The notes under the pieces: model-generated | Seen by the model: only the letters and a program-made list of their open reading frames with translations | The model's database searches: none | What the model was told of the DNA's origin: nothing | DNA from: Tubulanus polymorphus | Taxonomy: Eukaryota; Animalia; Nemertea | Length of the DNA: 64,000 nt | Direction of reading: 5' to 3' | Assembly: GCF_964204645.1 (NCBI RefSeq) | Contig: NC_134026.1 | Location: forward strand, 16,216,150-16,280,149 | Shown: positions 1 through 64,000 of the stretch, one piece after another | Position numbering within the stretch: the first letter of the stretch is position 1 | Layout of the letters: the number at the start of each line of letters is the position of its first letter | Program-made: the position numbers and the translations under genes

Positions 1-1382
1 CTACCAGATGGATCTGTAATATGAAAGAAAAAGAGGGTGTTCTGGTACCTAAAGCTAGACTGGTAGCGAGAGGGTTCGAAGAAAAAGAACTGTCTGCTGA
101 AAGAGATTCACCTACATGTTCCAGTGAGTCGCAGAAAATAGTGCTAACTATCCTTGCTAAAAAAAATGGCTGCCCAAGTCAATGGACATTAAAAGTGCTT
201 TTCTCCACGGAGACAACTTTGACAGACAAGTCTTTTTGGTACCCCCTAAAGAAGCCTGTGAAAATGGTTATCTATGGCAGTTAAAAAAATGCGTTTATGG
301 TCTCTAGTGATGCTTCTCTGTGTTGGTACAAGAAGGTAAAATCCACCTTGTCTGGTATGGGAGCAAGGATATGTCAATATGACCCAGCTGTTTTCTACTG
401 GCTTGATGAGAATGGTCTACTTACTGGCATACTATTATGTCATGTTGATGATTTTCTGTGGGGAGGTGATGAATCATTTGAAAAAACTGTTATCTGCAAG
501 ATTCGAGAGAAATTTATCGTTGGAAGGGAAGATGTACAGGCTTTCAGATATGTTGGTATGCATCTAAACATATCGCAAGATGTCACGACTCTCGATCAGG
601 ATTTCTATAAGCAAAATTTAGAATTCGTAAAAATTAGTAGTGTCCGGGCACAAAACCAAAGTGATTGTCTTACTGAAAATGAGAAGACAGCGATGAGAAA
701 AAAAGTAGGTCAGCTTCTGTGGCTTGGCCGTCAAACAAGACCAGATTTAATATTCGATGTCTGCCAGCTTGCATCCTCAATAAAGAAAGGAAAAGTTGGA
801 TTTATTTTGGCGTTGAATAAAGTGATTAAAAGAGCTAAAGCTGAAAATGTCAGTATACAATTTCAGTATCTGAAGAATCCTAGAATGTTGGTTTATTGTG
901 ATGCATCATTAGGGAATTTATCTGATGGCGGTACTCAAGGTGGCTATTTTATTTGTTTCGTTGGTGAGGATGGAAATATGTCACCAATATGTTGGAGCTC
1001 AAAGAAGGTCAGTAGGGTTGTGCGAAGTACCCTTGCGGGTGAGACATTAGCTTTAGCGGATGCGGTTAATGCCGCCTTACCTTTATGCTTGATGTACACT
1101 GAGCTTATGTTTGGCAGAAAGGAGTTTGGTTTAGTTGATGTGATATGCCTCACTGATAGTAAATCGCTGTGTGAAGCAGTCGTTTCCAACAAAGCAGTCA
1201 CTGAGAAACGTCTCAGAATCGATATAGCTGCTATAAAAGAAGTTATTGAAAATGGTGCGCTGAAAGAGCTGCGTTGGATCGACTCGAATAAACAACTAGC
1301 TGATTGCCTTACAAAAAAAGGTGCGTCAGCTGCGGGTCTGTTGCAGGCTTTGGAGTCTGGAACTATTCAGTGGACGCTATAA
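1..1382 (+). mobile_element. Ty1/Copia LTR retrotransposon pol C-terminus (RT + RNase H), probably GalEa-like, with two frameshifts
   Basis: Motifs KARLVARGF, then MDIKSAFLHG and LWQLKKCVYGL in a shifted frame (167-304), then HVDDF, TRPDL, YCDAS, TDSKSL and QLADCLTK. Frameshifts lie at the A8 run (159-166) and near 300-305. Confidence 0.93.
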
Positions 1383-1773: not shown

Positions 1774-1931
1774 TTTCGTGGTTTTATGCTGCAAATTGAT
1801 ATACACCTGCATTAGTTTGGATGGGAATTCGAAAAAAATTTGCTGTACATAAGGCATAACCTTAACAAGAGAAATCCCACAATAAGTTCAGCCAAAACGA
1901 GAAACTTAAATAGAAGAGTTATATATATTTG

Positions 1932-1971
1932 CGCAACGTTTCGGCTAAAGACTATTAGCCATCATCAGGCG
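1932..1971 (-). ncRNA. Second hammerhead ribozyme copy in the inverted pLTR
   Basis: Exact reverse complement of 3072-3111. Confidence 0.85.
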
Positions 1972-2038
1972 TACTGAGTACAGGAGAATATTACAAGATC
2001 AAAACAATAGAAGCAGAGTGAGTGATTAAAATATTAGA

Positions 2039-2752
2039 ACATACCTACATTATTTCTCCTTCACCGCTCATAACATTAAACTTAGTGTTGCCCAAAGCTT
2101 ATTCCTTCGCGCATTAAGGATTTGTGACCCCCTTTTCTTGGATGATGAACTAACCCAGATCAAGACCTCTCTTAATAAATTAGCTTACCCCGACGACATT
2201 TTGAATAAAGCTCTCTTGAGAGCCCGTCGTTCACATTTCAGTCACTCTCAAGGGACCCGCGCGCGTAAACAGCCTATTATTGTACCTTTTGTTCCTTTTC
2301 TGGAAAAATCTAAAACTCCCCTCCATCTCTTAAACAAACAACTCATTTTTACTTATAACAACAAACTTAGTCGTAATCTTACTCATAACTCCCCCAAAAT
2401 TGAACCCCTGAACATTGGTCTATATAAAATTCCCTGTAAAGTTTGTAACAAAATATATATCGGCGAAACCGGACGCGATTTACACAAGCGCATTCGTGAA
2501 CATAAGAATGATGTAAAGAATTTTAAGCCTGAAAGCGGTGTTGCCAATCACGTATACGAAACCAGCCACAATTTTGATTTTGAAAATGCCTCCATAATTT
2601 TCCCCTGTTCAGAAAAGATTAAACGACACATTATGGAATCGGCCCTGATTATTGAAAACTTGGAAAATTGTGTTAATTTGAATAACGGTTTCTCCCCCCA
2701 CAACATTTTGATCTCCAAATTTCTCGCTTCTCTTGTACCCCCGTTATACTAA
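2039..2752 (+). CDS. Penelope RT thumb + GIY-YIG endonuclease (5'-truncated ORF)
   Basis: Open frame from TYLHYFS...LFLRALRIC through GLYKIPCKVCNKIYIGETGR...RIREH...H...H...MESALI...NLNNG. Confidence 0.93.
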   Translation, partial: TYLHYFSFTAHNIKLSVAQSLFLRALRICDPLFLDDELTQIKTSLNKLAYPDDILNKALLRARRSHFSHSQGTRARKQPIIVPFVPFLEKSKTPLHLLNKQLIFTYNNKLSRNLTHNSPKIEPLNIGLYKIPCKVCNKIYIGETGRDLHKRIREHKNDVKNFKPESGVANHVYETSHNFDFENASIIFPCSEKIKRHIMESALIIENLENCVNLNNGFSPHNILISKFLASLVPPLY

Positions 2753-3071
2753 TTCCCTCCATTGTTTTGCCTTTATCATAGTTTGCTTGTTTCCACTCAC
2801 TCACTGATTATCGCCTTTCATGTTCCTTCTCTTTGTTTTATTTGATTACCCCTCAGCTTGTCCTCCCGTTTTAATCACGTTAGCTTGTGTCTTTGTTTAT
2901 TAATTACTTTAATCTACATTGCCCCTAGTTTGCCTTGCTTATTTTAGCATTGTTTTCTAGTTGTTATGTCATTACTTTAATCTATTCCCCTTTCAATATT
3001 TTAATCACTCACTCTGCTTCTATTGTTTTGGTCTTGTATAAATATCTTGTAATATTCTCCTGTACTCAGTA

Positions 3072-3111
3072 CGCCTGATGATGGCTAATAGTCTTTAGCC
3101 GAAACGTTGCG
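3072..3111 (+). ncRNA. Minimal type I hammerhead ribozyme in the Penelope pLTR
   Basis: Sequence cgc-CTGATGA-tggcta-atagtctt-tagcc-GAAAC-GTT-gcg. It has the core boxes, stem II ggcta/tagcc, a palindromic minimal stem III (aacgtt) and stem I cgc/gcg. Confidence 0.85.
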
Positions 3112-3316
3112 CAAATATATATAACTCTTCTATTTAAGTTTCTCGTTTTGGCTGAACTTATTGTGGGATTTCTCTTGTTATCTTCTTACACGGATATTGT
3201 GTATCTTCTCGTCTCAACAAGGCATAACCTTGTGTTAATTTTTGGGACATCCCAGATTATCTATCTTATGTTTCCATCTTGCTTGTTTGGTAATTTTACA
3301 AGTTGATACACAGCCA

Positions 3317-9610: not shown

Positions 9611-10542
9611 TTTTTATGCCCCAACAACGCGTTGTGGTGGGTATATTCTAATCACTTCGTCGTTCGTCCGTCTGTCCGTCCGTCCGTTCGTCTGTCTGTC
9701 TGTCCGCAGTGGTTTCCGTGCCCTAGCAGCTAAACCCTTCGACAGATTTTCTTCAAATTCTCGAGTTGTGTTGTACTACATGAGGTCAGTAACTAATTAG
9801 ATCTTGGGTCCTGTACATCTATGGTCAAGGTCGCAGGAAACCATTTTTTGAATTTCATTACCGGGCTCTAACTCATAAACGGTTTAAGATAACTGACTGA
9901 AATTCTATGGATGGGTTGTCCTAGGGACCGTGGGTAACTGATTAGATTTTGGGTCCTGTAAGGGTAAGGTCAAGGTCGCAGGAAGCCATTTTGTGAATTT
10001 CATTTCTGGGCTCTAACTCATAAACGGTTTAAGATAACTTACTGAAATTCTATGGATGCGTTATCCTAGGGACCGTGGGTAACTGATTAGATTTCAGGTC
10101 GTGTTGGTCAAAGGTCAAGGTTACTAGAAGTTGTTACGTATTTTTCATTTCCGGGCTCTATCTTATAGATGGTTTAAGATGATTTGGTGACACTTTTTGG
10201 GTGGGTTATCCTAAAGACCATGAGTAACTGATTACATTTCGGGTCCTCTAGGTCAAAGGTCAAGGTCACAAGGAGCTGTTTTGTATTTTTCATTTCCGGG
10301 CTCTTAATTCAAAAACGATATAAGATAACTTTGTGAAATTTAATGGATGGGTTACCCTAGAGACCGTGAGTGACTGATTAGATTTCGAGTCATGTAGGTC
10401 AAAGGTCAAGGAAACCGGAAGCCGTTTTGTATTATTCATTTCCTGCCTTCAGAAATAGGTCGACATACACTCGGGGTGTATTTTACACTCGGGCGTTTCA
10501 CCTGATGTGGGGGCATCAGTCGTCTTTAGCGACATTCTAGTT
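9611..10542 (+). mobile_element. HINE-like element with a ~145-bp internal tandem array (~5 units)
   Basis: Starts tttttatgcccca with an inverted repeat and a (gtcc/gtct)n microsatellite. Unit anchors (aactgattag) are at ~9791, 9936, 10081, 10226 and 10372. The 3' end is ggggcat, a gtcg...cgac hairpin, then ctagtt. Confidence 0.85.
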
Positions 10543-20835: not shown

Positions 20836-21768
20836 AAGATCCCAGTGGATTTAAATAATGGGCATGTGTGTTCTAGAAAGTAACTTCTGGTGATCAATTC
20901 TGACACTTTTTTGAAGTTTGAATAATTTTCCTTGAGCAGAATCTAGGTCGGTGCCTCTAGCAATATTGCAATAAAATCGGTGAAGGTAGATAAGGCTGTC
21001 TTGGTACATTACCAGGTAAAAATCTAGATGATTTGGGTGTGATACCAATATTTTTGGTTACCGTTGTGGAGATGATACTTATATGTTTTCTCCAGTTTAG
21101 TCCGTCAGTTCGAACGCATAAGAATTTTGTATCAGAAACCCTAGATAGGGGTTTTCCATCTATAAACAAGTTCATTGGAATATTGCCAGACCTATCAAAA
21201 TCAAAATCATGTATTAGATTAAATGTAGTATAGATTTAACGATAATTTGTTTGCTTTAAACCAATTTATAAGTTAAGCTTATTATGTGTTAATAATGAGT
21301 TCAAGATGGTTCGGATTGGTTTGGCTTCTGAAACTATCGGAGACATCAGCAAACAAGGTCGAAAGGTCGAAAAATAAATTCTCGCACACTCGAATTTATT
21401 TTTCGACCCTTCAACCTTTAACCTGAACCCCCATTATCCCTTTTACTCTTATGATATTCATATATATGAACATTATTTAAATGAATTTCATATATTTCAA
21501 AATAAATTTCATGTTTTAAAAGTGAGAGTGAAATGTTAGCTTAATAATCTAGAAAATAAGATCAAATATAGATTTCAGTAAAATAAAAAATCAATTTTTA
21601 AACATAAAAAGTGTGAGTAATTAACGAGTGAAATAATTTATCTCTATTTTATATCTAAAACAGTGAATATTTATATTTATATGCGTTAAATTCTTATTTT
21701 CAATATAAAAATAACGAGTAATTAACGAGTTGAAGAAAATATCAATTTTAATAAAAAAATGGCTAATA

Positions 21769-22062
21769 AATGAACAGATACTACAGTTCAAAGATATCGA
21801 TTTAAATGAATTAGAAAAATATTTTACGATTAGAAATTTCATTCCTATTAAAGATTTGATCAAAACTGGACGTTTCCGTTTTCAAGTGAAAAATATTTCT
21901 GAATTAATATTTAAAAATCATTATCTAATAATAGAGTTACCGAATGATAAAGATAAAATCTTATTCAATACAATAATTCCAAAATTCACAACATTTGAAG
22001 AAATAGATCAACATTTAATAATTACAGATGAAATGCAATCACTTTTAAATTTGAAATGTTGA
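21769..22062 (+). pseudogene. Short arm copy of the unknown element-A protein (start codon lost)
   Basis: NEQILQFKDID...MQSLLN is near-identical to the right-arm ORF. A 4-bp deletion removed the in-frame ATG. Confidence 0.6.
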
Positions 22063-22194
22063 TTTCTCTAAATAAGATGTAATAAATTTATTATATTTTC
22101 ACTCATTTAATTATTTGATTAATTCACTAATCTCATTCAATATTAACTTTTTTATTTCGATGATTGTTTCCATTTAACTTTTTTAACTTTTTAC

Positions 22195-22329
22195 TCAATT
22201 TAATGTTTCATTCATTAGATCCTTACTGATATTTTCATAGTAAAAGTAAAGTGCAGCTAATATTAATCCTCCAGCAACTAAATAATGCTTCAAATCACTT
22301 TTTCCAATTGGAATGCTGAAACCATCCAT
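22195..22329 (-). CDS. Small single-pass membrane protein of element A (probably frameshift-truncated)
   Basis: MDGFSIPIGKSDLKHYLVAGGLILAALYFYYENISKDLMN, homologous to 60639-60845. It is not in the supplied ORF track. Confidence 0.7.
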   Translation of the reverse strand: MDGFSIPIGKSDLKHYLVAGGLILAALYFYYENISKDLMNETLN

Positions 22330-22517
22330 TTATTTAAGAGAAAAATTAAAAGTAATTTGATTTATCTTATTTCGAATATTTAGAGTTGAATTATTATTTT
22401 TGAGTTATGATATTTTGATTTAAGATGGTGTGATTTATTGCTTCGAGTATAATATTTTCCCCAATTAAATAACGCTTTTTCATTAGGTTCATATTTAGGT
22501 GTTTCGATTTCATTATC

Positions 22518-22955
22518 TTAGTTACATTGAACTGCAACATCTTTGAATGATTTTTCATTTGGAATGTCTGGGGTAAATCTTTTTTCTTCTACTCTGAAAA
22601 ACATTACATAGCATTCTCTGAAAGGGCAGTAACGTAAGTGTAAAAATAATGTTTTATGTGAATTTTCATTATTCAAAAGTGATTGCATTTCATCTGTAAT
22701 TATTAAATGTTGATCTATTTCTTCAAATATTGTGAATTTTGGAATTATTGTATTGAATAAGATTTTATTTTTATCATTCGATAACTCTATTATTAGACAA
22801 TGATTTTTAAATATTAATTCAGTAATATTTTTCACTTGAAAACGGAAACGCCCAGTTTTAATCAAATCTTTAATAGGAATGAAATTTCTAATTGTAAAAT
22901 ATTTTTCTAATTCATCTAAATCGATATCTTTGAACTGTAGTATCTGTTCATTCAT
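22518..22955 (-). CDS. Unknown protein of element A (long arm copy)
   Basis: 145-aa ORF. Past the TAA the frame continues DNEIETPKYEPNEK...GKYYTRSNKSHHLKSKYH, homologous to the zinc-finger tail of 60276-60569, so the stop is probably premature. Confidence 0.6.
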   Translation of the reverse strand: MNEQILQFKDIDLDELEKYFTIRNFIPIKDLIKTGRFRFQVKNITELIFKNHCLIIELSNDKNKILFNTIIPKFTIFEEIDQHLIITDEMQSLLNNENSHKTLFLHLRYCPFRECYVMFFRVEEKRFTPDIPNEKSFKDVAVQCN

Positions 22956-23493
22956 ATATTAGCCATTTCTATATCAAAATTGATATTTTCTTCAACTCGT
23001 TAATTACTCGTTATTTTTATATTGAAAATAAGAATTTAACGCATATAAATATAAATATTCACTGTTTAAATATGAATTATTTCAATCGTTAATTACTCAC
23101 CCTTTTTATATTTAAAAATTGATTTTTTATTACTGAAATCTATATTTGATCTTATTTTCTAGATTATTATGCTAACATTTCACTCTCATCTTTAAAACAT
23201 GAAATTTATTTTTAAATATAGGAAATTCATTTAAATAATGTTCATATATATGAATATTATAAGAGTAATATGGATAATGGGGGTTCAGGTCAAAGGGTGG
23301 AGGGTCGAAAAATAAATTCGAGTGTGCGAGAATTTATTTTTCGACCTTTCGACCTTTGGCCTGAACCCCCATTATCCCTATTACTTATGTTTATCAATAA
23401 ACGACTGCCTGGTTTCTCTTCAACAAGTAACTTTGAAACCATAAAAGAGATAAGCCTCTGATACCGTAGTGATCAAATTTGTTGAGTGATAAA

Positions 23494-23667
23494 CAGTGGA
23501 ACCTCGTTATAACGAACTCGGATACAACAATTCATCGGATATAACAAATAAAGAATTTCGTCCCGAGAACGAAAATTTAATTAATTTCATATTGGATATA
23601 ACGAACTATCGGTTATAACGAACATATTTTCTGGTCCCGTGAAGTTCGTTGTAACGAGGTTCCACTT
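23494..23667. mobile_element. Tc1/mariner (pogo/Tigger-like) MITE
   Basis: TIRs cagtggaacctcgttataacgaa / ttcgttgtaacgaggttccact. Confidence 0.85.
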
Positions 23668-26600
23668 TGTATAATATCAAAGGCTTTTGACAAGATTAGA
23701 AATATTCCAAATTTAGTCTCACCTTTATCCATACTTTCAGTAATTTTGTCAGAAATGGCTGCAACTGCTAGAAACGTAGAATAGTGTTTTCTGAAACCAA
23801 ACTGATATTCTCTAAGAATTTTATATGTGTCTAGGAAACTAGTGAAACGGATATTTTTCTTCTGGAAATTTGCTAAAGCACTGAAGTAATGAAACAGGCT
23901 TGTAATTGCTAAAAATATCGTCATCTCCCGATTTGTACCATGGCTTTACCCTGGCAATTCTTAAAGCGTTAGGGGCAACACCCGTGGCCATACTGCGATT
24001 AAATACATGAGTTTGATGAAACGTTGGCTTCTATCATAATGACTACAACTATCTTCAAGTGTGAAATTTTTGACAATATTTTGGATTTCAAAAACTGTTA
24101 GAAGGCAAAATCATCTGTTTCTGAGCAGTTGTACGTTTTAAGTGATATCTTTTAGAATGTATCATAAACGTGTTTAGTTTATTGAAGATAAAATCAGTTT
24201 CTAAAATTGTGCGAGTCAGTCAGAGCATGGCCGTATTTGTCCATGGTCTGAGTTAGATTTTCGACTTCCAAGTATATATGGAACCTCGCTGACTTGGACT
24301 TTCCATACCCGATATTGAGAACGCCAGGATTTTGTTTACTTTGAATTGTCTATAGTTGAAACAAACACGGTTTCATCAGGTTTTTGATCGACTTGTCTAA
24401 TCTTTCGATGACCCACGGTCACAGGTCACTAACTGAATAAGAGACATTATATTAGGCTAAGCAAATTTGATACTTACTTAGTTCTCCTTTCTACTGAGTT
24501 TGAAAGTTGGCCCGCCTGTCTACCCTGTACATAACGTTTTTCAAAAATCATATCATCAAGCTAACAAGTACAGATTAGGTAGCTATAGAAATGAACTGAT
24601 TACAAATTTCATTGCGATTTGATTTACAAAATGACGCAGCCGATTAGGAGACACAATTAGGAATGATTTTTAGCCTTATTCGCGCTCAAAATCGAGCTAA
24701 ACTGAAGAGCAAAAATCCACATTATTATACAAGCACAGCGCCTTTCTCATGGAACGTCTTACGACTACAATTAATCGATCGTTTCCTAATGCAAGTCCAT
24801 TCCCTCAAGAGCAGTCAAAACCGTTGCTAAACACCTGTGTTTCTTGGTAATTCTGCCGCAACATCGTTGGTTACATTGTCCAGGGAAGTAAGAGCAAGAG
24901 AACGTTCTTGCGTAGTAAAGAAAGATCCATTGTCACTTCGACCAGTCGCTCTTAAGCGTAAATGTACATTCATCTTGAGCACATTTAAAAAAAACTCATT
25001 TATTAAAAATTTGCCGTTAGGCTTACAGATATACGGAATCCGATGACACTTGAAATTGCAACGGCGGCGAATGAACATCTATGGTTTAATTACTAGATAA
25101 CAAGCTACACTGGGATGTACGCAACATTGGAGAATAGTTTTTTTAAGCTCGAGGGAAATGATCTCTTCAGAGCAGCCTCTTATGTAAAATATGGATTCTT
25201 CGATTTTCTTTTACGCTCGAATTAGTCAGTTCACGTCGCTGCGATATTATTATATCCCTTGCGTGTTGCGAAGGCTTGAATTGGAATCTGATTGCTGGGA
25301 CGATATTGGACGTGCAACACCGATAATACATGCACACGTCAATGGCAAAATAGTCCTTGGCAATTCGATTGTCGCGAGTAAATGCCAATTACTGACCTAA
25401 TGTCCTCGTTTCGGCTGATTTAACTTACGTTCGGGTTTTCGAAGCGAAAGAACATCTTATTGCGCGAAAATTCAATTTCATAGTCGAAAATAGTCACTTA
25501 TTGTATACGAAACAGACGTGAAATCGATGGTAGATTAGCATTCATTGAACTGCCGTTAACCTGTCATTTGACATTCCTCATTTTGTTGGTGTATAAAACC
25601 AAATAGTAACGGTATAACAGGAATACTCTATACAGCCAACCGGTTTGTTCCATCGCGTGTATTCTCGAGTTAGGGTTGATTAAACTTTTGAGCGTGTTCG
25701 TTATCAGTTTGATCATAGTGATGGAGTTGCCTCTAATCCCCGAAACACATAAAATACCTTCAGTAATCACATTACGTGAGTTGTTCAAGACATTCATCAA
25801 CTGCATGTTTGAGAAACGCTTAATTTCCAAATATTTTCTTACATCCATTATTCACTGTTAGATTTGAACTCATTGGAACGGGGTACCGGTACGGAAAACA
25901 TATCATCCTGAATCAATACAGTTCTACTTAAAATTTTGCAATACCACATTCATAGTTTGATGTGTATTGACTTAATTGTTTCTTCAGTACTGTCACGTGA
26001 GTTATGGAGAGATATACCGGTAACTTCATATCGTCAATTTGATCTCTGATACAACATTATACTCCATGATAATACCATGTTATTTTTTGATTAGCCCAAT
26101 CGATTCAATGTAATTAATCAATGGATATCATTCTTTCAGATGTTCAAATATGGTTTAACTCCATGTCCATGGTCATTGCATAAGACCTTGTTAAGCCCCG
26201 CGCGGTAGATATTTTTTGTACATGCTCAATCTACTAAAGAAAGCTTGATATTTTACCTTAGAATCAATCATTAACCTTTCTTGAGTGTGCTGGAATACGT
26301 GTTAATAATCTAATAAGTATGACCTACACTTCATTTTCCGCGTGCATTGATTTTGATTTTAACGTCCGTGAAAAGCAAATGTTTTTTACAGAAATGATGT
26401 TAGTATGCTCGCTACAGTAACCATAAGATGTTAAGTGTAATAGAGATTGATAAAAGTAAATGGTATTTACTGGAAATCCTCAATAGTCAAATTTGCTGTA
26501 CGCGAACAGAGATAACGATGCCCATAGTGTAATATCATCTTAGATGAATAGCTAATTTTCGAGTACTCTGGATCACTTTTTTAGTCAAAGTTTCTTCTAG

Positions 26601-27690: not shown

Positions 27691-27858
27691 CAGTGCAACC
27701 TCGTTATAACGAACGCGGATGCAACGATTCATCGGATATCACAAATATAGATTTTAAGTAAGACACTTAAATTATGTTCATACTGTAAATAACGAACTGT
27801 CGGTTATAAAGAACATATTTTCTGGTCCCGAGAAGTTCGTTGTAACGAGGTTCCACTG
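27691..27858. mobile_element. Second copy of the same pogo/Tigger-like MITE
   Basis: cagtgcaacctcgttataacgaa...ttcgttgtaacgaggttccactg|ta. The interior is similar to the 23494 copy. Confidence 0.85.
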
Positions 27859-28838
27859 TATTGAGCTTCATTATAAGCTAGCCGATGAAGAAGAGATCGA
27901 TGCGCAGAACGTCACTGCTCCATGTTTTCAATTGTTCGCGAAATATTGTTGACAAAGATATAGCTGAGAGATTGTCATCACCAAATGAAGGAGTGATTTC
28001 TCATTTTACGCCCACTATGAACTACCAGTTCAACAAACCATGATTAAACCATTGAAACTCTCTGAACAGTGCTTTGTCCTATCTACGTATTGCTACATAA
28101 GCGCACGCTTACATTTTTTCCAGGGCGTCAAATAATTTTTTCATGATTAATTTTCTTTTTTTATCCATTTGGTACCTATGCATATTTTATAACCGCAGTC
28201 TATTGCATTTTTGTAGATGATGACATGCTTTACGATTTTACAGTCTTAATTCATTCAGTCGCATCATTAGGTTCTGTATCTCACCATGGGCGTTTACTAT
28301 TGAAAGTGCATGTATTTTCGTTTGTACCGGAACCATGAATATTTTGTAAACATAGTCAATTGGTAAACCTGTAGCCCATGACATAATATGTGATTCGTGT
28401 AATTTCAATGAACAATTGATAATGCATTATCTTTATTTGGAGGATTTTCCAGAATGTAGATAGCCAACAAAATCATATTTTTCTGGAATTGGGCTCGTAT
28501 ATTCGGCATATCTTTTGAATTCATTCATTCAGCATTGAATTCACTCTATAAAATTCACTTAGTTCGCGTTTTAGAAAACAAGGGATAATACGTAGCTGCT
28601 CCCTAACGACATATCTACCAAAATAGATGTATTTCGACTATAAGAGTTAACTCGTTGAAAATTAGATAATTTTTGATTCTTGGCTTTGAAGTAATTAAAT
28701 CATTGGACCTAGGTGTCCAGGAAAGGACTTGGCACAGTGAATTATATTCGTCGATAGTACATAAAGGGACGAATGAAAATGATTAAGCAATGTTTTTAAG
28801 GTCTCATCAGTTACCGTGGCAACGGTAACCGATAAGAC

Positions 28839-29117
<279 letters not shown>

Positions 29118-29465: not shown

Positions 29466-30460
29466 TTTTTTAGCTCCGCTGTGACCGAAGGTCAGCGGAG
29501 CTAATGGGTTAGGGGGTGAGCTGTCGTCGTCCGTCAACTTTTCCTTCAAATCGCTAGTAGTCCTACAGTTTTAATCGGATCAATTCCAAATTTGGTATGA
29601 ATGTTCTATGGACCTAGGCCTACAAAGTTACAGAGCGATTTTTTGGATTTGTTCCCCAGGGGCGCCCCCTGGGGGTGGAGTTTCTATTTCTTCAAATTGC
29701 TACTCGTCCTACAGTTTTAATCGGATCAATTCAAAATTTGGTATGAATGTTCTATGGAGCAAGGCCTACAAAGTTAGAGAGCGATTTTTTTGATTTGTCC
29801 CCCAGGGGCGCCCCCTAGGGGTGGAGTTTCTATTTCTTCAAATCGCTACTAGTCGTACAGTTTTAATCGGATCAATTCCAAATTTAGTATGAATGTTCTA
29901 TGGACCTAGGCCTATAAAGTTACAGAGCCATTGTTTTGAATTCGTTCCCCAGGGGGCGCCCCTGGGGGTGGAGTTAATATTCTAATTGCTACTAGTCCTA
30001 CAGTTTTAATCAGATCAATTCCAAATTTGGTGTGAATGTTCTATGGACCTAGGCCTATAAAGTTACAGAGCGATTTTTTTAGATTTGTCCTCCAGGGGCG
30101 CACCCTGGGGGTGAAGTTTCTATTTCTTCAAATCGCTACTAGTCCTGCAGTTTAAATCAGATCAATACCAAATTTGGTATGAATGTTCTATGGACCACGG
30201 ACTATGAAGTAACAGAGCCATTTTTTATTTATCCACCAGGCGGCGCCCCTGGGGGTGGAGTTTCTATTTCTTCATATTGCTATTAGTCCTACAGTTTTAA
30301 TCAGATCAAGTCGAAATTTGGTATGAATGTTCTATGGACCAATACCTACAAAGTACAGAGCCCTTTTTGGATTTGGCCAAAAGGGGACACCCCTAGGTAT
30401 GGAACTTCCATTTCTTCAAATCACACAGTGGAGCTATATAAGCCGATAGGCTCCTTGACT
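29466..30460 (+). mobile_element. HINE-like element with a ~146-bp internal tandem array (~6 units)
   Basis: SubTIR tagctccgctgtg / cacagtggagcta, 5' inverted repeat cagcggagcta, 3' hairpin agcc-gata-ggct. Unit anchors (cagttt) are at ~29566, 29712, 29858, 30001, 30147 and 30292. Confidence 0.88.
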
Positions 30461-46575: not shown

Positions 46576-47418
46576 CTAAACTTTCCAATTCAAAAACGGC
46601 TTGTTCATTTTTTTCAAACTGACATCGGTTGTAGCCAGGGTCCCGCCTTTTTCTCGCTCTGTAACATTCGTTTGCAAATCTTCATTGTTCGGCAATGGTA
46701 GAGCGCTTTCCGTTATCTTCGGCGGTGTCCGAGTTGCTATAGTCGTCTGCTGACTCTGGTCGTTCCTTCTGCTACTGGCTACTGCCGGCAATGTGATGGG
46801 GGCTGGTTGTCCCCGTTTCTTTCTTCTTTGGTCGTCGGTAACAGTTACCTTCAATTCGCATTCGAAAACTTTGTAGATCGATCCGTTGTGTAAAGTTACG
46901 TACGCCACTGCCTCTGGATTGGCTGCTCTGATTGCGTTTAATCTTTCGAACAGAAGTTTGCGTTTTGCCCTTATCTCGGTTGGTAAGTTTTCGGGAGTTC
47001 TAATAGCTTGATTGGTGCTGGCAAATCGTGCTTTATATACAAATTGCCCGTCTTTGAAATCTCGAAACTTCGCTGTAATTAAGCGAGTATCGCCGCTATT
47101 ACTGGGGTTTCTATGAACCCGCTGAAACACTATTTCGTCGACGTGTTCTTGGGGAATTTTATAATAGTCTACCAAAGTTTTTCTCACAACAGCCTCCGTA
47201 TCCTCTTTCGCAAGTTCACCTAGTGCACCGATGAATACGAGATTATCTCTCCTTGATCGCACTTCCTGGTCAATAAGTTTATTCTCTATTTCTTCCCGCA
47301 AAGATCTAAACTTACGGTTCATTTTAGTCTCCGGCGCTTTTTCAGGCCTGATTTCGATCAGAACATTCTTAAACGAGACTGAGTCTTCATCCGGTTCAGG
47401 ATCAGAGCCACGACTCAT
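46576..47418 (-). CDS. LINE ORF1 protein (L1-type RRM/CTD, Transposase_22-like)
   Basis: Motifs RSRRDNLVFIG, FQRVHR, RLITAKF and ENLPTEIRAKRKLL. It lies upstream of, and co-oriented with, the 43250-46480 ORF2 remnants. Confidence 0.82.
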   Translation of the reverse strand: MSRGSDPEPDEDSVSFKNVLIEIRPEKAPETKMNRKFRSLREEIENKLIDQEVRSRRDNLVFIGALGELAKEDTEAVVRKTLVDYYKIPQEHVDEIVFQRVHRNPSNSGDTRLITAKFRDFKDGQFVYKARFASTNQAIRTPENLPTEIRAKRKLLFERLNAIRAANPEAVAYVTLHNGSIYKVFECELKVTVTDDQRRKKRGQPAPITLPAVASSRRNDQSQQTTIATRTPPKITESALPLPNNEDLQTNVTEREKGGTLATTDVSLKKMNKPFLNWKV

Positions 47419-57650: not shown

Positions 57651-59946
57651 TGAGATGCAATGAGATACTGTCCGTACAGTGTCACCCCTAGCGTCATTTA
57701 GCCGACGTCACACTTTACATTTTATTAAAGTACAGACAAATAGACGAAACGCTGACTTTTGAAGGGAATTGTTGCCCGTAAATGAGCATCAACCGGGACT
57801 CTTTCGTGAGGTTAATGAACCTTTGTCACAATATAGACACCTCAGAGCAAAATTTCTAGCAATCAACTTCGCTGGCGCCATCAATCCGATTGGCTACAGT
57901 CACACTCGAAACAAATAGGGACTCAAAACAGTGACGTTATCTAATGACGGCTTATCCCTTCAGTTGGTATATGATTGTACTTTTGAGATAAGCATTATTA
58001 AGGCCTTGTGGACATGTTCAGAAGTATCTGTTCAAAGATTCTTAACCAGGAAATAACTAGCAAAGTTAAATCCGATACGCCCTATTCAACATTGAATGGT
58101 AATGCATACATCTGTACTATCGGGGTAGCATTTGGAAAGATCAGTACTGCTCAACGAACATGCGTGCAACAAAATATGCAGGTACTACGTCCTTTATTCA
58201 GATTTATAAGCCAGCCGATCACAGGAGATTCTTGGCCCCACCAAAATCATTGGACCGGGCCTTAGCCAAAGCTAGGCACGGATCAAATGCAAAGCGCGTA
58301 AATCGCGACAGTTCCAGAAGTGGCTTTATCACTTCGCATTGTCACGGGAGGGGAAGATTTATGTTCGTAGTAGGCCGATCGTAGGTCTTGGGCTACTGAA
58401 AGGACTGTATTGAATCAATCAATATTGATTGGCAGGGTGGCAGACAGCCACGTAGGTTTAGGTTCACCGGGGCTAAATAATGAATACATATACCGTAACA
58501 CCAGGGAGGGCTAGGGCTGAATTTGATAGATGAATCTCATGAACGAAAGAAATATGAAATATATGATACATAGTCAAGAGTATTACAAAAGGGTTTTAGG
58601 CGAAGTGCGAACCCTATTAACTATTTAATTGTCAACGTAACGACTTCGGAAATATCGCACATCAGGACTAATACGACAAATGTAATGTCCATATGGTGTC
58701 GCCATCTGCTGCTATTTAGCAGCTGTTTCATGGTTTAACGTTACGCTCAGTTTTTTTTACTTCGTCATTTTATCACAGTACCGCCAAAAACTCGAAACAC
58801 CCTACACACGGAAGACACGCGTGGTAAAAAAAGCTAAACCGCAAACGACAAGGGAAAGCCAAAGCCAAACCGGTGTTTTCCGTCTGTATGCAGTGCAGCG
58901 TGGTGAATATGCATAGAACGACAAACGGCCCCAGTAAAAAAATGACGTGGAAAGATACAGGCAAAATAGTGTATTGCAATCTTCGGTACACAACGGATAT
59001 ACAGTACCGTGTTGTTTGAAAGTTCAACTCTATCAATCAGAGGCCACAAATCTCCATTGATGAACTTATTTCGATCGGTAATTCCTTCTATACATGGTAT
59101 AAATAATTGTCGCAACGATGAAATCCCGCTATGCGGGCGCATGCAAAATCGACATAGAAGCATTACATCCATATCGATCGCGGCAAGTTATTTGAGTCAT
59201 TCTCATGAAAAAGGATTCTTTGCTCTCCTTGTCTAAAATACATTATTCAGCTTATCTCATGTTATTGGATCCATTCCTAAAATGAGTGACGGTTTGTCGC
59301 CTAGCCCAACGCGTACGGGAAACAGTATAATAGTAAGAATGATTATAATCTGTAAATTTGTATAGGGTCTGTTCCATTTACAAGATGTTCACCAGCGCTC
59401 TTAGCGTTTAAGCGAAAACTGCATCTAAAGTTCACAGAAAAGCAGATGTTCAAACTGTGTTTAAATGTGTACCGATCATAGAATTTCCGAATCGCTGAAT
59501 CCAAAGAGTTTGATATGTTGTGAGTAATAGGGAATATGGGGGTTCAGATCAAAGGTCGAAAGGTCGAACTCATAAAAAATAAAAAACGCTCGAATTAATT
59601 TTTTACTCACTCGCCCCTTCAACCTTTAACCTGAACCCCCATATTCCCTATTACTTCTAATATTTCCATATGTTAAAAGTGTGAGTAAAGTGTTAGCGTA
59701 ATAATCTAGATAAATAAGATCAAATATAGATTTCGAATAATAAAAAATCAATTTTAAACATAAAAAGTGTGAGTAAAGTGCAAACATGAAAAGTGTGAGA
59801 AAAAGTAACGAGTACATAACGAGTTGTTAGAATTAAAATCAATTTCAAACATAAAAAGTGTGAGTAAAGTGTGATTGAAATAATTTATATTTTAAACATT
59901 GAATATTTATATTTGAATGAGTTTTAATAAAAGTTTTGTAATAAAA

Positions 59947-60569
59947 ATGAAGACAGAAGAAGAAGAACCCAAATTCAAAATCGAAATCAATGACACCAAT
60001 AAATTATTTTGATTATCTGATATTAAAAATTATATTTCAGCAACAAATCTAGTGTATGCAAGACAAAATAAAATCGATAATATTACTATAATTAATCAAA
60101 TATTATCAAATGAAAAATATTTAATTACTGAACTAATTGATACTTTTGATAATGGAATCAAAAATCCTAAAGTATTCAATACAGTTTTAAATTATAAAGG
60201 GAATTTAGTTTTAATTTAGGAACTCCTTTTAATGAAAGAGATTGTGATTTAATACTTTCTAAAGATTACAATGATTTGATTAACTTAAGAATTGAAAAAA
60301 GACAATTATATTATTTAAATTTTGATAATAAACAAATTATCTATAATGAAAATTCATCAAATATTGGAATTCAATGTGAATCAGTTAATAATAATTCATC
60401 AAATATTGGAATTCAATGTAATTTAGATGATGAATTTAAAAAATTCAATCCTAATGAAAAAGTGTATTGTTATTGCGAAGGTAAATATTTAAAATCACAT
60501 AAATCAAAGCATTATCAGACAATTAAACATATCAAATATGAAAAGAATGATAATTCTATATTGAAATAG
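59947..60569 (+). pseudogene. Disrupted long ORF of element B with C-terminal C2H2-like zinc finger
   Basis: MKTEEEEPKF...IKNYISATNLV...EKYLITEL...VFNTV (with stops), then the 60276-60569 frame CYCEGKYLKSHKSKHYQTIKH. Confidence 0.6.
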
Positions 60570-60638
60570 AATTAAGCTGTATGAGTAACTCAAAAAAAGA
60601 TATTTCAAATCACTTTTAATTTTTTTTTCTTAAAATAA

Positions 60639-60845
60639 ATGGAAGGTTTCATTCCAACCGGAAGTAGTGATTTGAAACATTATCTTGTAGCTGGAGGTTT
60701 AATTTTGGCATCGCTTTTCTTTTACTATGAAAATATTAGTAAAGATCTAATGAATAAAAATATGAAATTGTGTAAGAAATTAAAGAAATTGAATGGGAAT
60801 AATTATAGAAATAATCATAAAAAAGTTAAAATTGAATCAGATTAG
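60639..60845 (+). CDS. Small single-pass membrane protein with basic tail (element B)
   Basis: Hydrophobic YLVAGGLILASLFFYY segment; homolog at 22195-22329 (-). Confidence 0.72.
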   Translation: MEGFIPTGSSDLKHYLVAGGLILASLFFYYENISKDLMNKNMKLCKKLKKLNGNNYRNNHKKVKIESD

Positions 60846-61556
60846 TGAATTAATCGAATAATTAAATGAGTAAAAATATATTAAATTTATTACATCTTAT
60901 TTACAGAAATCAAGAGCAACTGAAATTAATAATTATGGTTTCAGGTTTATTTTCATTCTCGGTTTACTCATTAAAACAGTTATTAGAATTCTATGATAAC
61001 TGTAATTATTTTTCATTTGATAATATTTGATTAGCTTGCATACACTAAATTTGTTGATGAATTATAATTTTTGATATTAAATAATGAAAATAATTTATTG
61101 GTTTCATTGATTTTGATTTTGAATTTGGATTCTTCTTTTTCTGTCTTCATTTTTATAACAAAACTTTTATCAAAACTCATTCAAATATAGATATTCAATG
61201 TTTAAAATATAAATTATTTCAATCACACTTTACTCACACTTTTTATGTTTGAAATTGATTTTAATTCTAACAACTCGTTAATTACTCGTTATTTTTTCTC
61301 ACACTTTTTATGTTTGCTTTTTACTCACACTTAACTCGCACTTTTTATGTTTAAAATTGATTTTTTATTATTCGAAATCTATATTTGATCTTATTTATCT
61401 AGATTATTACGCTAACACTTTACTCACACTTTTAATATATGGAAATATTAGAAGTAATAGGGAATACGGGGGTTCAGGTTAAAGGTTGAAGGGGCGAATG
61501 AGTAAAAAATTAAAAATAAATTCGAGCGTGTGTGGCAATAGATTGGAAGTTACATC

Positions 61557-62039
61557 TTGGTGAAAGGTTATTATAATTCTAAACATAGTTCTATAAATAT
61601 GAAACCAATACAAGCTAGAAAAGAAGGTAATTCAGAAATAGTTAGGAATAATTTATATGGAGCATTTGTTACACATGATTTTGGAGAACCTAAATTTAAG
61701 ATAGGACAACACGTTAGAATATCTAAATATAGAAAAACATTTTATAAAGGTTATACCCCTAATTTTACTGAAGAAATATTCAAGATTAAAAAGATAATAT
61801 TAACTAAACCTTTTGTTTATAAACTAGAAGATCTTAAAGATGAAGAAAAATTAGGTTATTTCTATGAACAAGAATTATCACTTGTACCAAATCCAGATGA
61901 AATAGAATACAAAATAGAAAAAGTATTGAAAACAAAAACTCTTAAAGGAAAAAAGTATTCGTTGGTGAAATATAAAGGATATGATGATAAATTTAATGAA
62001 TGGATTTTATCTAGTAAAATTAAAAGAATAAATGAATAA
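61557..62039 (+). CDS. Polinton/Maverick retroviral-type integrase, C-terminal half with chromodomain (DDE core missing)
   Basis: Motifs HSSINMKP, FKIGQHVRIS, FYKGYTPNFTEEIF and GYFYEQEL; chromodomain YKIEKVL...LVKYKGYDDKFNEWI. Confidence 0.9.
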   Translation: MVKGYYNSKHSSINMKPIQARKEGNSEIVRNNLYGAFVTHDFGEPKFKIGQHVRISKYRKTFYKGYTPNFTEEIFKIKKIILTKPFVYKLEDLKDEEKLGYFYEQELSLVPNPDEIEYKIEKVLKTKTLKGKKYSLVKYKGYDDKFNEWILSSKIKRINE

Positions 62040-62627
62040 AGATTTATTTATATTTGAACCGCATAATATGTTAGTTACTGGGGTAACAAACTGTGGTAAA
62101 ACACATTTCATATTAGACTTGTTAGAAACTATTTATAAGAATCATTTTGATAATATAGTAGCATTTTGTCCTACATATGAAATGAATAAAACATATAATA
62201 GAGATATAGTTAAGATAAAAAAGTTTATTATATTAGATCCTAAAACAGTAAAAGAAAATTTAGATAATTGTATAAAAATAGCAATTGATACTTATAAAGG
62301 ATCAAATACACTATTCATTATAGATGATTGTGCAAATTTACATGATTCAAGTTATGTTATTTAGCTTTTTCTGGGAGACATTTTGGGATAACAACATGGG
62401 TTTTAAATCAAAAATATAATTCAATTGTTAAAGACTTTAGGGAGAATATAAGATTTCTAGTTTTATTCTACAATAAAGATAGAAAATCTATGCAACAATC
62501 ATTGGAAGAAAATCAAATTATACCTACTGAATTACATGATGAATATATGAATAAATTAAAGAATAATAAAGGTTCAAAATTATTACTGAGGCTTCAATTT
62601 CCCTATGAATATAAATTTATAAAATAA
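62032..62627 (+). pseudogene. A32/FtsK-like DNA packaging ATPase, frameshifted near 62350
   Basis: Walker A GVTNCGKT and Walker B LFIIDD. The shifted frame reads LAFSGRHFGITTWVLNQKY through to TAA at 62625-62627. Confidence 0.9.
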
Positions 62628-62635
62628 CTATTTAT

Positions 62636-62752
62636 ATACCTATGTATTAGATACCCTATTAGATACCCTAATACCTGATGCCCTATTAAATACCCTAATA
62701 CCTACCTATGTATTAGATACCCTATTAGATACCTTAAATCCTTAAAACCCCC
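62636..62752 (+). repeat. Short iterated gataccctatta units between convergent Polinton genes
   Basis: acctatgtattagataccctattagatacc is duplicated, with additional partial units. Confidence 0.75.
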
Positions 62753-62804
62753 TTTTTTATTTACTATTATTTTATACAATTTTCAACCAATATTATTATT
62801 TGTG

Positions 62805-63662
62805 TTAAATATAATTAATATCTGAATCACTTTCATCATCACTCTCTAATTCATAATCAGGCGCTAACAATTTGTTCAAACTCTCTACCGAATCTTCATA
62901 AATAATTGGTTTATTTTTATTCTTATTCTTCCTCCTTTCTAGCATATCATCAATAGTTACTACTTTATCTTTCGTAAAAAATGTATCCACATTATCTTTA
63001 ATATCAATATGCTTATCTGTAACTATATTTTCATTATCATCTTTCTTAGTGTTTGCTGCTAATATTTCATTTACAATGTTTGATCCTAATATTTTATAAT
63101 CATTTGTTAAATCTAATTCCTCTTTATTAGGTGTTGCTAATAATAAATCTTCATATAATTCTTTACCATTTACTTTTTTATTTGAAACAAACTTTGTTAC
63201 ATATCTAAATGGCTGTTCTATAAATTCTCTTAAACCAACCCGTTCTATAACATTAGTAATATGTACCTTTGTATTCATATGTTTATTCCAATTTGATGGA
63301 TCGTTTGAAAATTCACCTTTACAATAATCACAATAATTTCTATTTTCACTAATATTTAATATTATTTCATTATTTGATGTAGAAGGTATTACATTATTAG
63401 ATGTAGAAGGTATTACATTATTAGATGTAGAAGGTATTACATTATTAGATGTAGAAGGTATTACATTATTATCAATTACATTACTTAAATTATCAACAAC
63501 ACCACTTTTATTATTATCGATTTCTATTAGTTTAGTTTTATAAATTTTGAAAATAGGATCAAATATCAAAGCTATATTACAAGGTATTACATAATATAAA
63601 CCATCATTATTTTCATGTGTATTGATGTATGGAATATGTTTATATACTTTACCTCCTTCCAT
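62805..63662 (-). CDS. Polinton orphan protein with (NNVIPSTS)x4 repeat, C2H2 zinc finger and acidic tail
   Basis: Intact 285-aa ORF containing YCDYCKGEF...WNKHMNTKVH and a 24-bp tandem repeat at ~63370-63470. Confidence 0.75.
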   Translation of the reverse strand: MEGGKVYKHIPYINTHENNDGLYYVIPCNIALIFDPIFKIYKTKLIEIDNNKSGVVDNLSNVIDNNVIPSTSNNVIPSTSNNVIPSTSNNVIPSTSNNEIILNISENRNYCDYCKGEFSNDPSNWNKHMNTKVHITNVIERVGLREFIEQPFRYVTKFVSNKKVNGKELYEDLLLATPNKEELDLTNDYKILGSNIVNEILAANTKKDDNENIVTDKHIDIKDNVDTFFTKDKVVTIDDMLERRKNKNKNKPIIYEDSVESLNKLLAPDYELESDDESDSDINYI

Positions 63663-63694
63663 TTATTATATAAATTTTTATTAAAGCTAAAATT

Positions 63695-64000
63695 CTAATA
63701 CATAACACTATTTAATTGAGAATTTACAATATTTAATTGCGCGTCAGATATAATGTAAATGTGCATTTTGAAATTTTTGATTCCTTTATTCTTTGTCATG
63801 AATAATTGTATTCCATCTTTAGTGTTCTGGAGTTTTTTTCCAGAACATTGTAATGAATTATCCTCTGTTGTTCTAAAATCTAACCATAATGCATATTTAT
63901 TACCGGTATAATAATCAATTTGATTAATATTACAATTTTCAGATGATTTTACTTTTTCATTCATAAAATGTTTTCTAATTTCTGGCCATTGATCTATCAT
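63695..64000 (-). CDS. Polinton/adintovirus major capsid protein C-terminus (runs off the window)
   Basis: YYTGNKYALWLDFRTTEDNSL..SG..L.NTKDGIQL...HIYIISDAQLNI resembles recalled Polinton/adintovirus MCP C-termini. The context (ATPase, integrase) supports this. Confidence 0.75.
   Translation of the reverse strand: MIDQWPEIRKHFMNEKVKSSENCNINQIDYYTGNKYALWLDFRTTEDNSLQCSGKKLQNTKDGIQLFMTKNKGIKNFKMHIYIISDAQLNIVNSQLNSVMY

What the first reader, a model, noticed from the sequence alone, without database searches (positions are those of the whole stretch)
21355..23385. Hairpin-ended, near-palindromic 2-kb gene-bearing element: candidate Polinton satellite or mini linear replicon
Seen: ~700-bp inverted arms around a ~620-bp core; ~120-bp fold-back ends; the terminus ...ccctattACT; very high AT; small unknown ORFs; no transposase, polymerase or capsid. 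A diverged relative (59523-61533) has the same architecture. Known: Polinton TIRs begin AG and end CT, and hairpin ends are origins in parvoviruses and other linear replicons. Inference: this is a family of non-autonomous elements replicated, integrated or packaged by a Polinton/adintovirus helper (satellite- or transpoviron-like) that keeps its own cargo genes.
Basis: partly seen in the sequence, partly recalled or inferred. Interest (0 to 1): 0.9.

Follow-up and report, generated by a model that had tools for sequence, protein, structure and literature searches.

The report
Fold-back scraps of a hairpin-ended Polinton
The two 2-kb near-palindromes are real, but each is likely a one-off defective scrap made of two copies of one end of a larger multi-copy mobile element, probably the Polinton-type integrated virus whose genes touch the second scrap; the unusual part is that those ends carry a conserved ~125-base hairpin, which would offer a way to prime DNA copying that I found described for protist relatives but not for animal Polintons.

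Summary
E1 (21355-23385) and E2 (59523-61533) are real near-palindromes (arms 93% alike, 76% A+T), but each has only one whole hairpin end. Genomic reads show the hairpin terminus is a true mobile end: 1272 reads leave at base 23385 into mixed flanks, roughly 330 ends per genome against roughly 100-140 integrase/capsid copies. The 2-kb layout itself is not the family's form: E1's arm-core joint is carried by at most about 5 (likely 1-2) of about 26 related copies, and the duplicated arm shows no doubled depth. The arms are as old as the insertion. Best reading: independent snap-back (or internally deleted) derivatives of one end of a hairpin-ended Polinton-type element, not a fixed satellite family. 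Against this, both would measure about 2.06 kb with two whole ends, and the hairpin-Polinton link rests on one rearranged joint. Terminal palindromes are already reported in protist virophages/PLVs (2026 preprint); I found no report for animal Polintons. The scan's index held nothing similar. New variant of a known kind; interest 0.42.

The parts
21355..23385 (.). E1, 2031-bp near-palindrome (2060 bp if the left hairpin were whole)
23264..23385 (.). E1 whole terminal hairpin, 122 bp, AGT...ACT; true mobile end at 23385
   Evidence: fold z -14.2; 1272 reads leave at 23385 with agreement 0.35
21355..21447 (.). E1 left hairpin, outer 29 bp missing
21355..22050 (+). E1 short arm: cut hairpin, non-coding stretch and an inverted copy of the first ~95 codons of gene A (21766-22050)
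22671..23356 (-). E1 arm on the long side
22380..22955 (-). Gene A (191 codons read through with X; broken by a stop at 22518-22520); C-terminal His-rich motif shared with E2's gene A; no known relative
   Evidence: (36% over 45 aa)
22059..22375 (-). Gene B region (ORF 22195-22329, 44 aa before a frameshift; hydrophobic N-terminus), 83% alike to E2 60590-60913
22047..22059 (.). E1 arm-core joint, private to one or a few copies
   Evidence: depth 21x in bin 21951-22084 against 97 reads at 22091; bound
21222..21354 (-). Left flank: decayed LINE reverse transcriptase, later part (motif recognition recalled; Pfam gave no hit on the short piece)
23386..23492 (-). Right flank: the same LINE reverse transcriptase, earlier part; about 40 codons appear lost between the flanks (estimate from recalled RT motifs)
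59523..61533 (.). E2, 2011-bp near-palindrome of a sister subfamily
59523..59655 (.). E2 whole terminal hairpin, 133 bp
   Evidence: fold z -10.1
59947..60569 (+). E2 gene A, broken into several frames; N-terminal part unlike E1's
60639..60845 (+). E2 gene B, open, 68 aa
60866..61030 (+). Small ORF (54 aa) that runs into E2's arm-core joint near 61003
61003..61533 (-). E2 short arm, ending at the hairpin loop
61557..62039 (+). C-terminal part of an rve-chromodomain integrase (residues 203-361 of a 362-aa relative, 86% identical); the front part is absent here
62032..62627 (+). A32-type packaging ATPase, split into two frames near 62349
   Evidence: PF04665 E 1.6e-5
62805..63662 (-). 285-aa ORF with a weak zinc-finger match and a 24-bp tandem repeat
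63695..64000 (-). C-terminal 101 aa of a double jelly-roll major capsid protein (runs off the window)
   Evidence: 74% to P0003, whose model matches iridovirus, PBCV-1 and mavirus capsids

Best explanation
E1 and E2 are each built from two inverted copies of one hairpin-bearing end of a larger multi-copy element, and likely arose separately as defective snap-back products of a Polinton-type integrated virus around the time they inserted. Shown: the terminus is a multi-copy mobile end with a conserved ~122-133-bp hairpin; behind it lie genes A and B; E1's joint is rare; the arms are as old as the insertion; Polinton-type genes abut E2. Inferred: during copying from the end, the new strand passed genes A and B, switched back onto the opposite strand inside gene A and copied back to the end, giving an asymmetric snap-back molecule with two ends that the parent's integrase would accept. 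Inferred: small later deletions starting in the hairpin removed one end of each. Inferred and untested: the hairpin is the end of the Polinton itself, and its 3' strand folds flush and could prime replication. The second-best route to the same product is an internal deletion between unusually long terminal repeats.
For: Terminus: 1272 reads leave at exactly 23385 with agreement 0.35; calibrated on the 61560 joint this is about 330 ends, against about 98 integrase, 96 ATPase and 137 capsid copies at a single-copy depth of about 6, i.e. about two to three ends per gene copy. Layout rare: gene A depth in the duplicated arm 158x vs 156x in the single core (ratio 1.0, bin range 0.85-1.30; 2 expected if all copies were like E1); E1's joint in at most about 5 of about 26 copies; 9 contigs of run X2 leave E2's sequence at 61005 and 301 reads leave at 61560 with one common continuation. 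Different joints in E1 and E2. Age: at 9 of 12 listed sites where one arm differs from most reads, the other arm agrees with the reads; 2 shared, 1 third state. Only one end's sequence is present in 2 of 2; random break points would both fall inside 1.5-kb repeats of a 15-kb element about 2% of the time, and long repeats would have to be 1335 and 1480 bp or more, against 46-1447 bp in 134 vertebrate Mavericks (PMC8097293). Same layout as asymmetric snap-back genomes of AAV (PMC8235507). Polinton identity of the neighbour. Hairpin kept by selection or conversion: 2 adjacent positions of 45 changed in both stems between subfamilies; 3 outer/inner differences are kept in both, and all three pair as G-T on the 3'-ending strand, which folds better (-49.8 vs -46.2; -43.1 vs -36.0 kcal/mol).
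Against: With whole ends E1 would be 2060 bp and E2 about 2052-2070 bp; chance of such a match is about 0.5-2.5% under uniform break points (post hoc), which suggests size selection. Two such elements lie in one 64-kb window although they should be a minority. The link between hairpin and Polinton genes rests on one joint that reads show to be non-standard; no intact copy was seen. Depth cannot exclude that up to about a quarter to a third of copies are 2-kb forms with varied joints, and cannot separate snap-back from long repeats because subfamilies cross-map. E2's joint was not measured by depth. No target-site duplication could be read. Only the top rows of the loose-end tables were shown (1375 and 830 rows hidden).
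Confidence: 0.6

Rival explanations
1. Plain internal deletion: the parent is a Polinton with terminal repeats of 1.5 kb or more that hold genes A and B at both ends, and E1 and E2 are its two repeats joined after loss of the interior.
For: Flat depth from the non-coding arm through gene A in E2-type copies (364 reads at 61190, 316-358 in the gene A start, 295-430 further in); arms as old as the insertion; E1's flanks look like two parts of one LINE gene; repeats up to 1447-1500 bp are on record.
Against: Needs repeats at or above the longest on record; both break points inside the repeats in 2 of 2 cases (about 2% each if random); E1-type non-coding depth (254-267 reads near 23155) is about 1.7 times gene A depth, though cross-mapping may explain that.
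Confidence: 0.17
2. A separate hairpin-ended satellite class: the ends and genes A-B belong to non-autonomous elements (2.06-kb or somewhat longer) that borrow a Polinton's integrase and capsid; E2 merely sits against a Polinton fragment.
For: Matching total length; two subfamilies with the same gene order; gene B under purifying selection; up to 3.3 ends per integrase copy; gene A has no relative among 1.84 billion representatives, so nothing ties it to known Polintons; the E2-integrase joint is non-standard.
Against: No doubled depth on the arm; E1's joint rare; other copies run on past both joints; ends per capsid copy about 2.4, as expected for the Polinton's own ends.
Confidence: 0.18
3. 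Inverted duplications made in the chromosome long after insertion, or an assembly fold-back; never a mobile unit.
For: In 2 of 2 the short arm is the one cut inside the hairpin; E2 plus the integrase fragment reads as one inverted-duplication-with-deletion.
Against: Arms differ by 4-5%, so not an assembly mirror; 9 of 12 private differences are arm-specific, so the duplication is not late. An in-chromosome event at the time of insertion cannot be told from the best explanation.
Confidence: 0.05

Closest known systems
Polintons/Mavericks (animal 'adintoviruses', PMC8502044; vertebrate Mavericks, PMC8097293)
   Same: rve integrase with chromodomain, A32 ATPase, double jelly-roll capsid next to E2; ends AGTAAT...ATTACT resemble the (AGT)2//(ACT)2 motif; 100 or more decayed copies per genome.
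   Different: [quoted passage not shown] No polymerase gene is visible in the window. E1 and E2 hold none of the core genes.
Halocafeteria virophages and PLVs with terminal palindromes (bioRxiv 10.64898/2026.07.28.741278)
   Same: Palindromes at the outer edge of the terminal repeats of integrated capsid-bearing elements with rve integrases; the authors propose hairpin priming and note a link to non-pPolB replication genes.
   Different: Protist host; the one length I saw is 52 nt against 122-133 here; here the palindrome is imperfect with conserved mismatches; that paper's section describes no 2-kb fold-back derivatives.
Asymmetric snap-back genomes of adeno-associated virus (PMC8235507)
   Same: Two copies of one hairpin-bearing end, strands of unequal length, a unique loop, partial genes, dependence on the parent.
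   Different: Here integrated, decayed, 76% A+T, next to Polinton-type genes; no Rep or parvovirus capsid match; the hairpin is a simple stem, and 4 of 4 ends in the window have the same orientation.
Drosophila Vesanto virus segments (PMC8363768) and transpovirons (recalled)
   Same: Small gene-bearing linear DNAs with inverted ends that depend on other segments or a helper.
   Different: Vesanto segments are 3.3-5.8 kb, free and of fixed layout; E1's layout is not multi-copy and no free form was shown.

Membership tests
Polinton/Maverick (the element at 61534-64000, proposed parent) | rve integrase | tested here: met
   Window piece 86% identical to P0048, which has PF00665 and a chromodomain; only the C-terminal part is in the window
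Polinton/Maverick (the element at 61534-64000, proposed parent) | Packaging ATPase and double jelly-roll capsid | tested here: met
   PF04665 above cut-off; capsid tail 74% to P0003, whose model matches double jelly-roll capsids at E 1e-16
Polinton/Maverick (the element at 61534-64000, proposed parent) | Protein-primed DNA polymerase B | not testable with these tools
   The element runs off the window at 64000; no genome is held; no close relative in IMG/VR
Polinton/Maverick (the element at 61534-64000, proposed parent) | Terminal repeats with (AGT)2//(ACT)2-type ends bounding the genes | tested here: inconclusive
   Ends read AGTAAT...ATTACT; ends per gene copy 2.4-3.4; the only physical link is a non-standard joint
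Polinton/Maverick (the element at 61534-64000, proposed parent) | 5-8-bp target-site duplication | tested here: inconclusive
   None of 6-8 bp in the 80 bp left of E1, one 5-mer 72 bp away; the left end is deleted; E2's other end is rearranged
Non-autonomous family / satellite of fixed layout | Many copies with the same internal layout | tested here: not met
   E1 joint in at most about 5 of about 26 copies; arm/core ratio 1.0; other copies leave E2 at 61005
Non-autonomous family / satellite of fixed layout | Two intact ends and no enzymes of its own | tested here: inconclusive
   No enzyme match; only one whole end in each of 2 copies
Non-autonomous family / satellite of fixed layout | Free or packaged linear molecules | not testable with these tools
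   Short-read genomic run only; no place where many molecules begin or end was listed, which such a library need not show
Snap-back defective genome | Both arms from one end of the parent, with variable joints | tested here: met
   Both arms carry hairpin, non-coding part and start of gene A; joints differ between E1 and E2
Snap-back defective genome | Parent carries gene A at one end only | tested here: inconclusive
   Depth ratios conflict between subfamilies and are blurred by cross-mapping
Parvovirus/densovirus-type hairpin replicon | Rep/NS1 and parvovirus capsid genes | tested here: not met
   No such Pfam match in 12 ORFs scanned nor in gene A read through
Parvovirus/densovirus-type hairpin replicon | Flip/flop orientation of the terminal hairpin | tested here: inconclusive
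   4 of 4 ends in the window have one orientation; too few to exclude

The most novel reading that the evidence does not exclude
An animal Polinton-type virus that primes its replication from flush 3' terminal hairpins, perhaps without a protein-primed polymerase, and that repeatedly spawns size-selected ~2.06-kb snap-back satellites which keep two small cargo genes, are integrated by the parent's integrase and act as defective interfering genomes: parvovirus-like population biology fossilised in a germline.
Probability: 0.2. Interest if true: 0.8.

Novelty: new variant of a known kind. Interest (0 to 1): 0.42.

Why it matters
Polinton replication has been modelled (protein priming from paired terminal repeats) rather than observed. 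A family with about 300 hairpin-bearing ends per genome, conserved across subfamilies, extends to an animal genome a feature so far reported for protist virophages and PLVs, where it goes with non-pPolB replication genes, and makes a direct prediction: look at which replication gene the intact copies carry. Snap-back-shaped scraps as old as their insertion would be a fossil trace that these elements replicate as free linear DNA and make defective genomes like true viruses.

Tried and rejected
No whole genome held, so no genome-wide copy table. Hairpin motif: 0 matches in IMG/VR; 7 of 7 metagenome matches were chance (41-54% G+C, no extension, no hairpin). Gene A: no relative. Gene B: no usable Atlas hit. 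Integrase and capsid queries in IMG/VR: 0 of 16, 0 of 7, 0 of 37, 0 of 4 candidates; 5 of 147 with an integrase alignment, 40-45% identical fragments without recognisable ends; 2 of 40 in GTDB contigs, short fragments; none in phages; no solved-structure sequence match for the capsid relative. No Rfam match. No RNA holder listed. One search used a mis-registered structure string and is void; one search replaces it. Pfam did not confirm the short LINE flank pieces. The scan's own index gave nothing related. Rejected: assembly mirror (arms 4-5% apart); densovirus (no Rep or capsid match); structured RNA gene; late duplication in the chromosome.

Full report
OBSERVATION. E1 has inverted arms at 21355-22050 and 22671-23356 (93.4% over 700 columns) around a 620-bp core, and is 23.7% G+C in 36.6-36.9% flanks. 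Its right end is a 122-bp hairpin, 23264-23385, that begins AGT and ends ACT (z -14.2; 0 of 200 shuffles). Its left end starts 29 bp inside the hairpin. E2 (59523-61533) has a whole 133-bp hairpin on the left (z -10.1) and stops at the hairpin loop on the right (z 0.09); its arms are 59595-60062 and 61035-61513 (92.9%) plus a 31-bp piece. An 18-base hairpin motif occurs 6 times in the window, all in these four ends, against 0 in 100 shuffles. The arms differ at 4.1% and 4.9% of aligned sites, so neither is an assembly mirror.

ANATOMY. Read from the whole end inward, both elements run: hairpin, about 300 bp of non-coding repeats, gene A, gene B, a joint, then an inverted copy of the start of gene A, the non-coding part and a cut hairpin. 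E1's gene A (22380-22955, minus) is broken by one stop; read through with X it shares only a C-terminal His-rich stretch with E2's gene A (36% over 45 aa) and has no relative in Pfam or among 1.84 billion representatives. Gene B is shared (83% DNA identity); over 35 in-frame codons dN is 0.075 and dS 0.87 (Fisher p 9e-6), so it was a working gene while the two subfamilies diverged. The joints differ: long and short sides are 1335 and 696 bp in E1, 1480 and 531 bp in E2. E1's flanks translate as two consecutive parts of one LINE reverse transcriptase with about 40 codons lost (motif reading recalled, not confirmed by Pfam), so E1 fills a single insertion site; no 6-8-bp duplication is present.

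THE NEIGHBOUR. E2 runs directly into 61534-64000, of the same G+C (23.8%): the back part of an integrase (chromodomain; residues 203-361 of P0048 at 86%, an rve-plus-chromodomain protein), an A32 ATPase in two frames, a 285-aa ORF, and the tail of a capsid protein (35 relatives of 48 candidates). A model of relative P0003 (pLDDT 79.8) matches iridovirus, PBCV-1, mavirus and Sputnik double jelly-roll capsids (best E 1e-16). This is a Polinton-type fragment; the polymerase region is not in the window.

READS. Nine runs were listed, 3 holding 0.12-0.19 of E1's words. I laid 4 on 21951-25950 and 2 on 60063-64000 at 85% likeness. X2 contigs match the flank without a difference over 831 and 1361 bp, so the organism is the window's species or very close. 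X4 is raw genomic reads (12% of the run read); flank depth has median 6.2 (4.2-12.2 over 10 of the 18 flank bins, the repeat-rich ones left out). (a) 1272 reads leave the sequence at exactly 23385 with agreement 0.35: a true end with many different flanks. Calibrated on the 61560 joint (301 loose reads at depth 479) this is about 330 ends, an upper figure since inner stems of other subfamilies can add to it. Integrase, ATPase and capsid come to about 98, 96 and 137 copies, gene A to about 26 (E1 type) and 44 (E2 type). (b) If relatives had E1's layout, the part of gene A in the arm would be twice as deep as the part in the core; it is 158x against 156x (ratio 1.0, bin range 0.85-1.30). (c) The bin holding E1's joint is 21x while 97 reads cover 22091, just inside; at most about 5 copies, likely 1-2, carry the joint. 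(d) At E2, 9 contigs of X2 leave the sequence at 61005, and 301 reads leave at 61560 with one common continuation (agreement 0.94), so both of E2's joints are non-standard. (e) Of the 12 listed sites in the arms where at least three quarters of reads differ from the window, the other arm agrees with the reads at 9, shares the window's state at 2 and has a third state at 1 (only the best-supported rows are printed, 367 and 549 are hidden). The arms were therefore alike when the elements inserted.

MECHANISM. Shown: a multi-copy hairpin end followed by cargo genes; rare, differing joints; arms as old as the insertion; only one end's sequence in 2 of 2. Inferred: a strand copied from the end switched back inside gene A and returned to the end, giving the asymmetric snap-back form known from AAV (PMC8235507, passages), with two ends the integrase would accept; later deletions seeded at the hairpin trimmed one end of each. 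Plain deletion between long repeats gives the same product but needs repeats of at least 1335 and 1480 bp, against 46-1447 bp in vertebrate Mavericks (PMC8097293, passages) and 100-1500 bp quoted generally (10.1101/2023.08.22.554363, passages), and both break points inside them (about 2% if random). That the hairpin is the Polinton's own end is inferred from adjacency, base composition, the AGTAAT...ATTACT ends and 2.4-3.4 ends per gene copy; I put it at about 75-80%. The hairpin looks maintained: 2 adjacent positions of 45 changed in both stems between subfamilies (possibly one event), 7 other positions differ without compensation, and 3 outer/inner differences are kept in both subfamilies. 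All three pair as G-T on the strand that ends 3' in the hairpin, which folds flush and more stably. That is what a self-primer would look like, but three sites are weak evidence, and 4 of 4 ends show one orientation, giving no sign of flip/flop.

AGAINST THIS READING. With whole ends the two elements would be 2060 and 2052-2070 bp, a match expected 0.5-2.5% of the time under uniform break points (post hoc). Two of them share one window. Depth allows a minority of copies, perhaps a quarter to a third, to be short forms with varied joints. No intact parent was seen, and non-coding versus gene A depth is about 1.7 in the E1 type but about 1 in the E2 type.

WHAT IS KNOWN. Terminal palindromes at the edge of the terminal repeats were reported in virophage subtypes 1, 2, 5, 6 and PLV subtype 4 of Halocafeteria, tied to non-pPolB replication genes, with a hairpin-priming model (10.64898/2026.07.28.741278; passages and section 7 read; its supplements are closed and may list lengths or further cases). 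For animal Polintons I found no such report: searches (listings), and word look-ups in PMC8502044, PMC8097293, 10.1101/2023.08.22.554363, PMC8363768, PMC6431247, PMC11296320 and 10.1101/2025.04.19.649669 (passages only). The library lacks most subscription papers, and I did not see the original Polinton descriptions or Repbase; short non-autonomous Polinton entries there are recalled, not checked. Polinton terminal repeats left without genes and causing rearrangements are described in C. elegans (10.1101/2024.01.15.575659, passages); the anole paper notes an apparent absence of non-autonomous copies (PMC3014272, passages).

VERDICT. Observation partly confirmed; interpretation partly supported. 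Best reading 0.60, plain deletion 0.17, separate satellite class 0.18, late duplication or artefact 0.05. New variant of a known kind; interest 0.42. The most novel reading not excluded (hairpin-primed animal Polinton with size-selected snap-back satellites) has probability about 0.2 and would deserve 0.8.

Noticed in passing
window 23493-23666 and 27691-27859: A ~174-bp element with inverted ends, present twice in the window (84% alike) and at very high depth in reads (about 3000x in one bin); looks like a Tc1/pogo-type MITE (family label recalled). It lies 107 bp from E1's right end.
   Followed up: partly
window 1863-3180: Inverted repeats of 137-186 bp around a 240-aa ORF (2030-2752) with a GIY-YIG-like motif; resembles a Penelope-like retroelement with inverted ends (label recalled).
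   Followed up: no
window 9788-10443 and 29544-30422: Tandem arrays with a 145-146-bp unit; the first contains GGTCAAAGGTCAAGGTCA, close to the GGTCAAAGGTCGAAAGGTCG run in the outer hairpin stem. Probably chance; not tested.
   Followed up: no
proteins P0048/P0037, P0050/P0004, P0051/P0002: The closest integrase and capsid relatives report the same longest-contig lengths (7378, 3122, 2790 bp), so they probably share contigs. All close relatives lie on short contigs; the 7378-bp one could show whether a polymerase gene is present.
   Followed up: no
window 61453-61533 (loose ends at 61473 and 61530): About 317 reads point to a third subfamily of the hairpin end with another stem variant, and the hairpin centre varies between copies while the stem is kept.
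   Followed up: partly
window 285-1382; 46576-47583; 28841-29116: A Copia-like RT-RNase H ORF (365 aa), a LINE ORF1-like frame (335 aa) (labels recalled), and a 276-bp TA run: the window is a dense field of decayed mobile elements of an animal-type genome.
   Followed up: no
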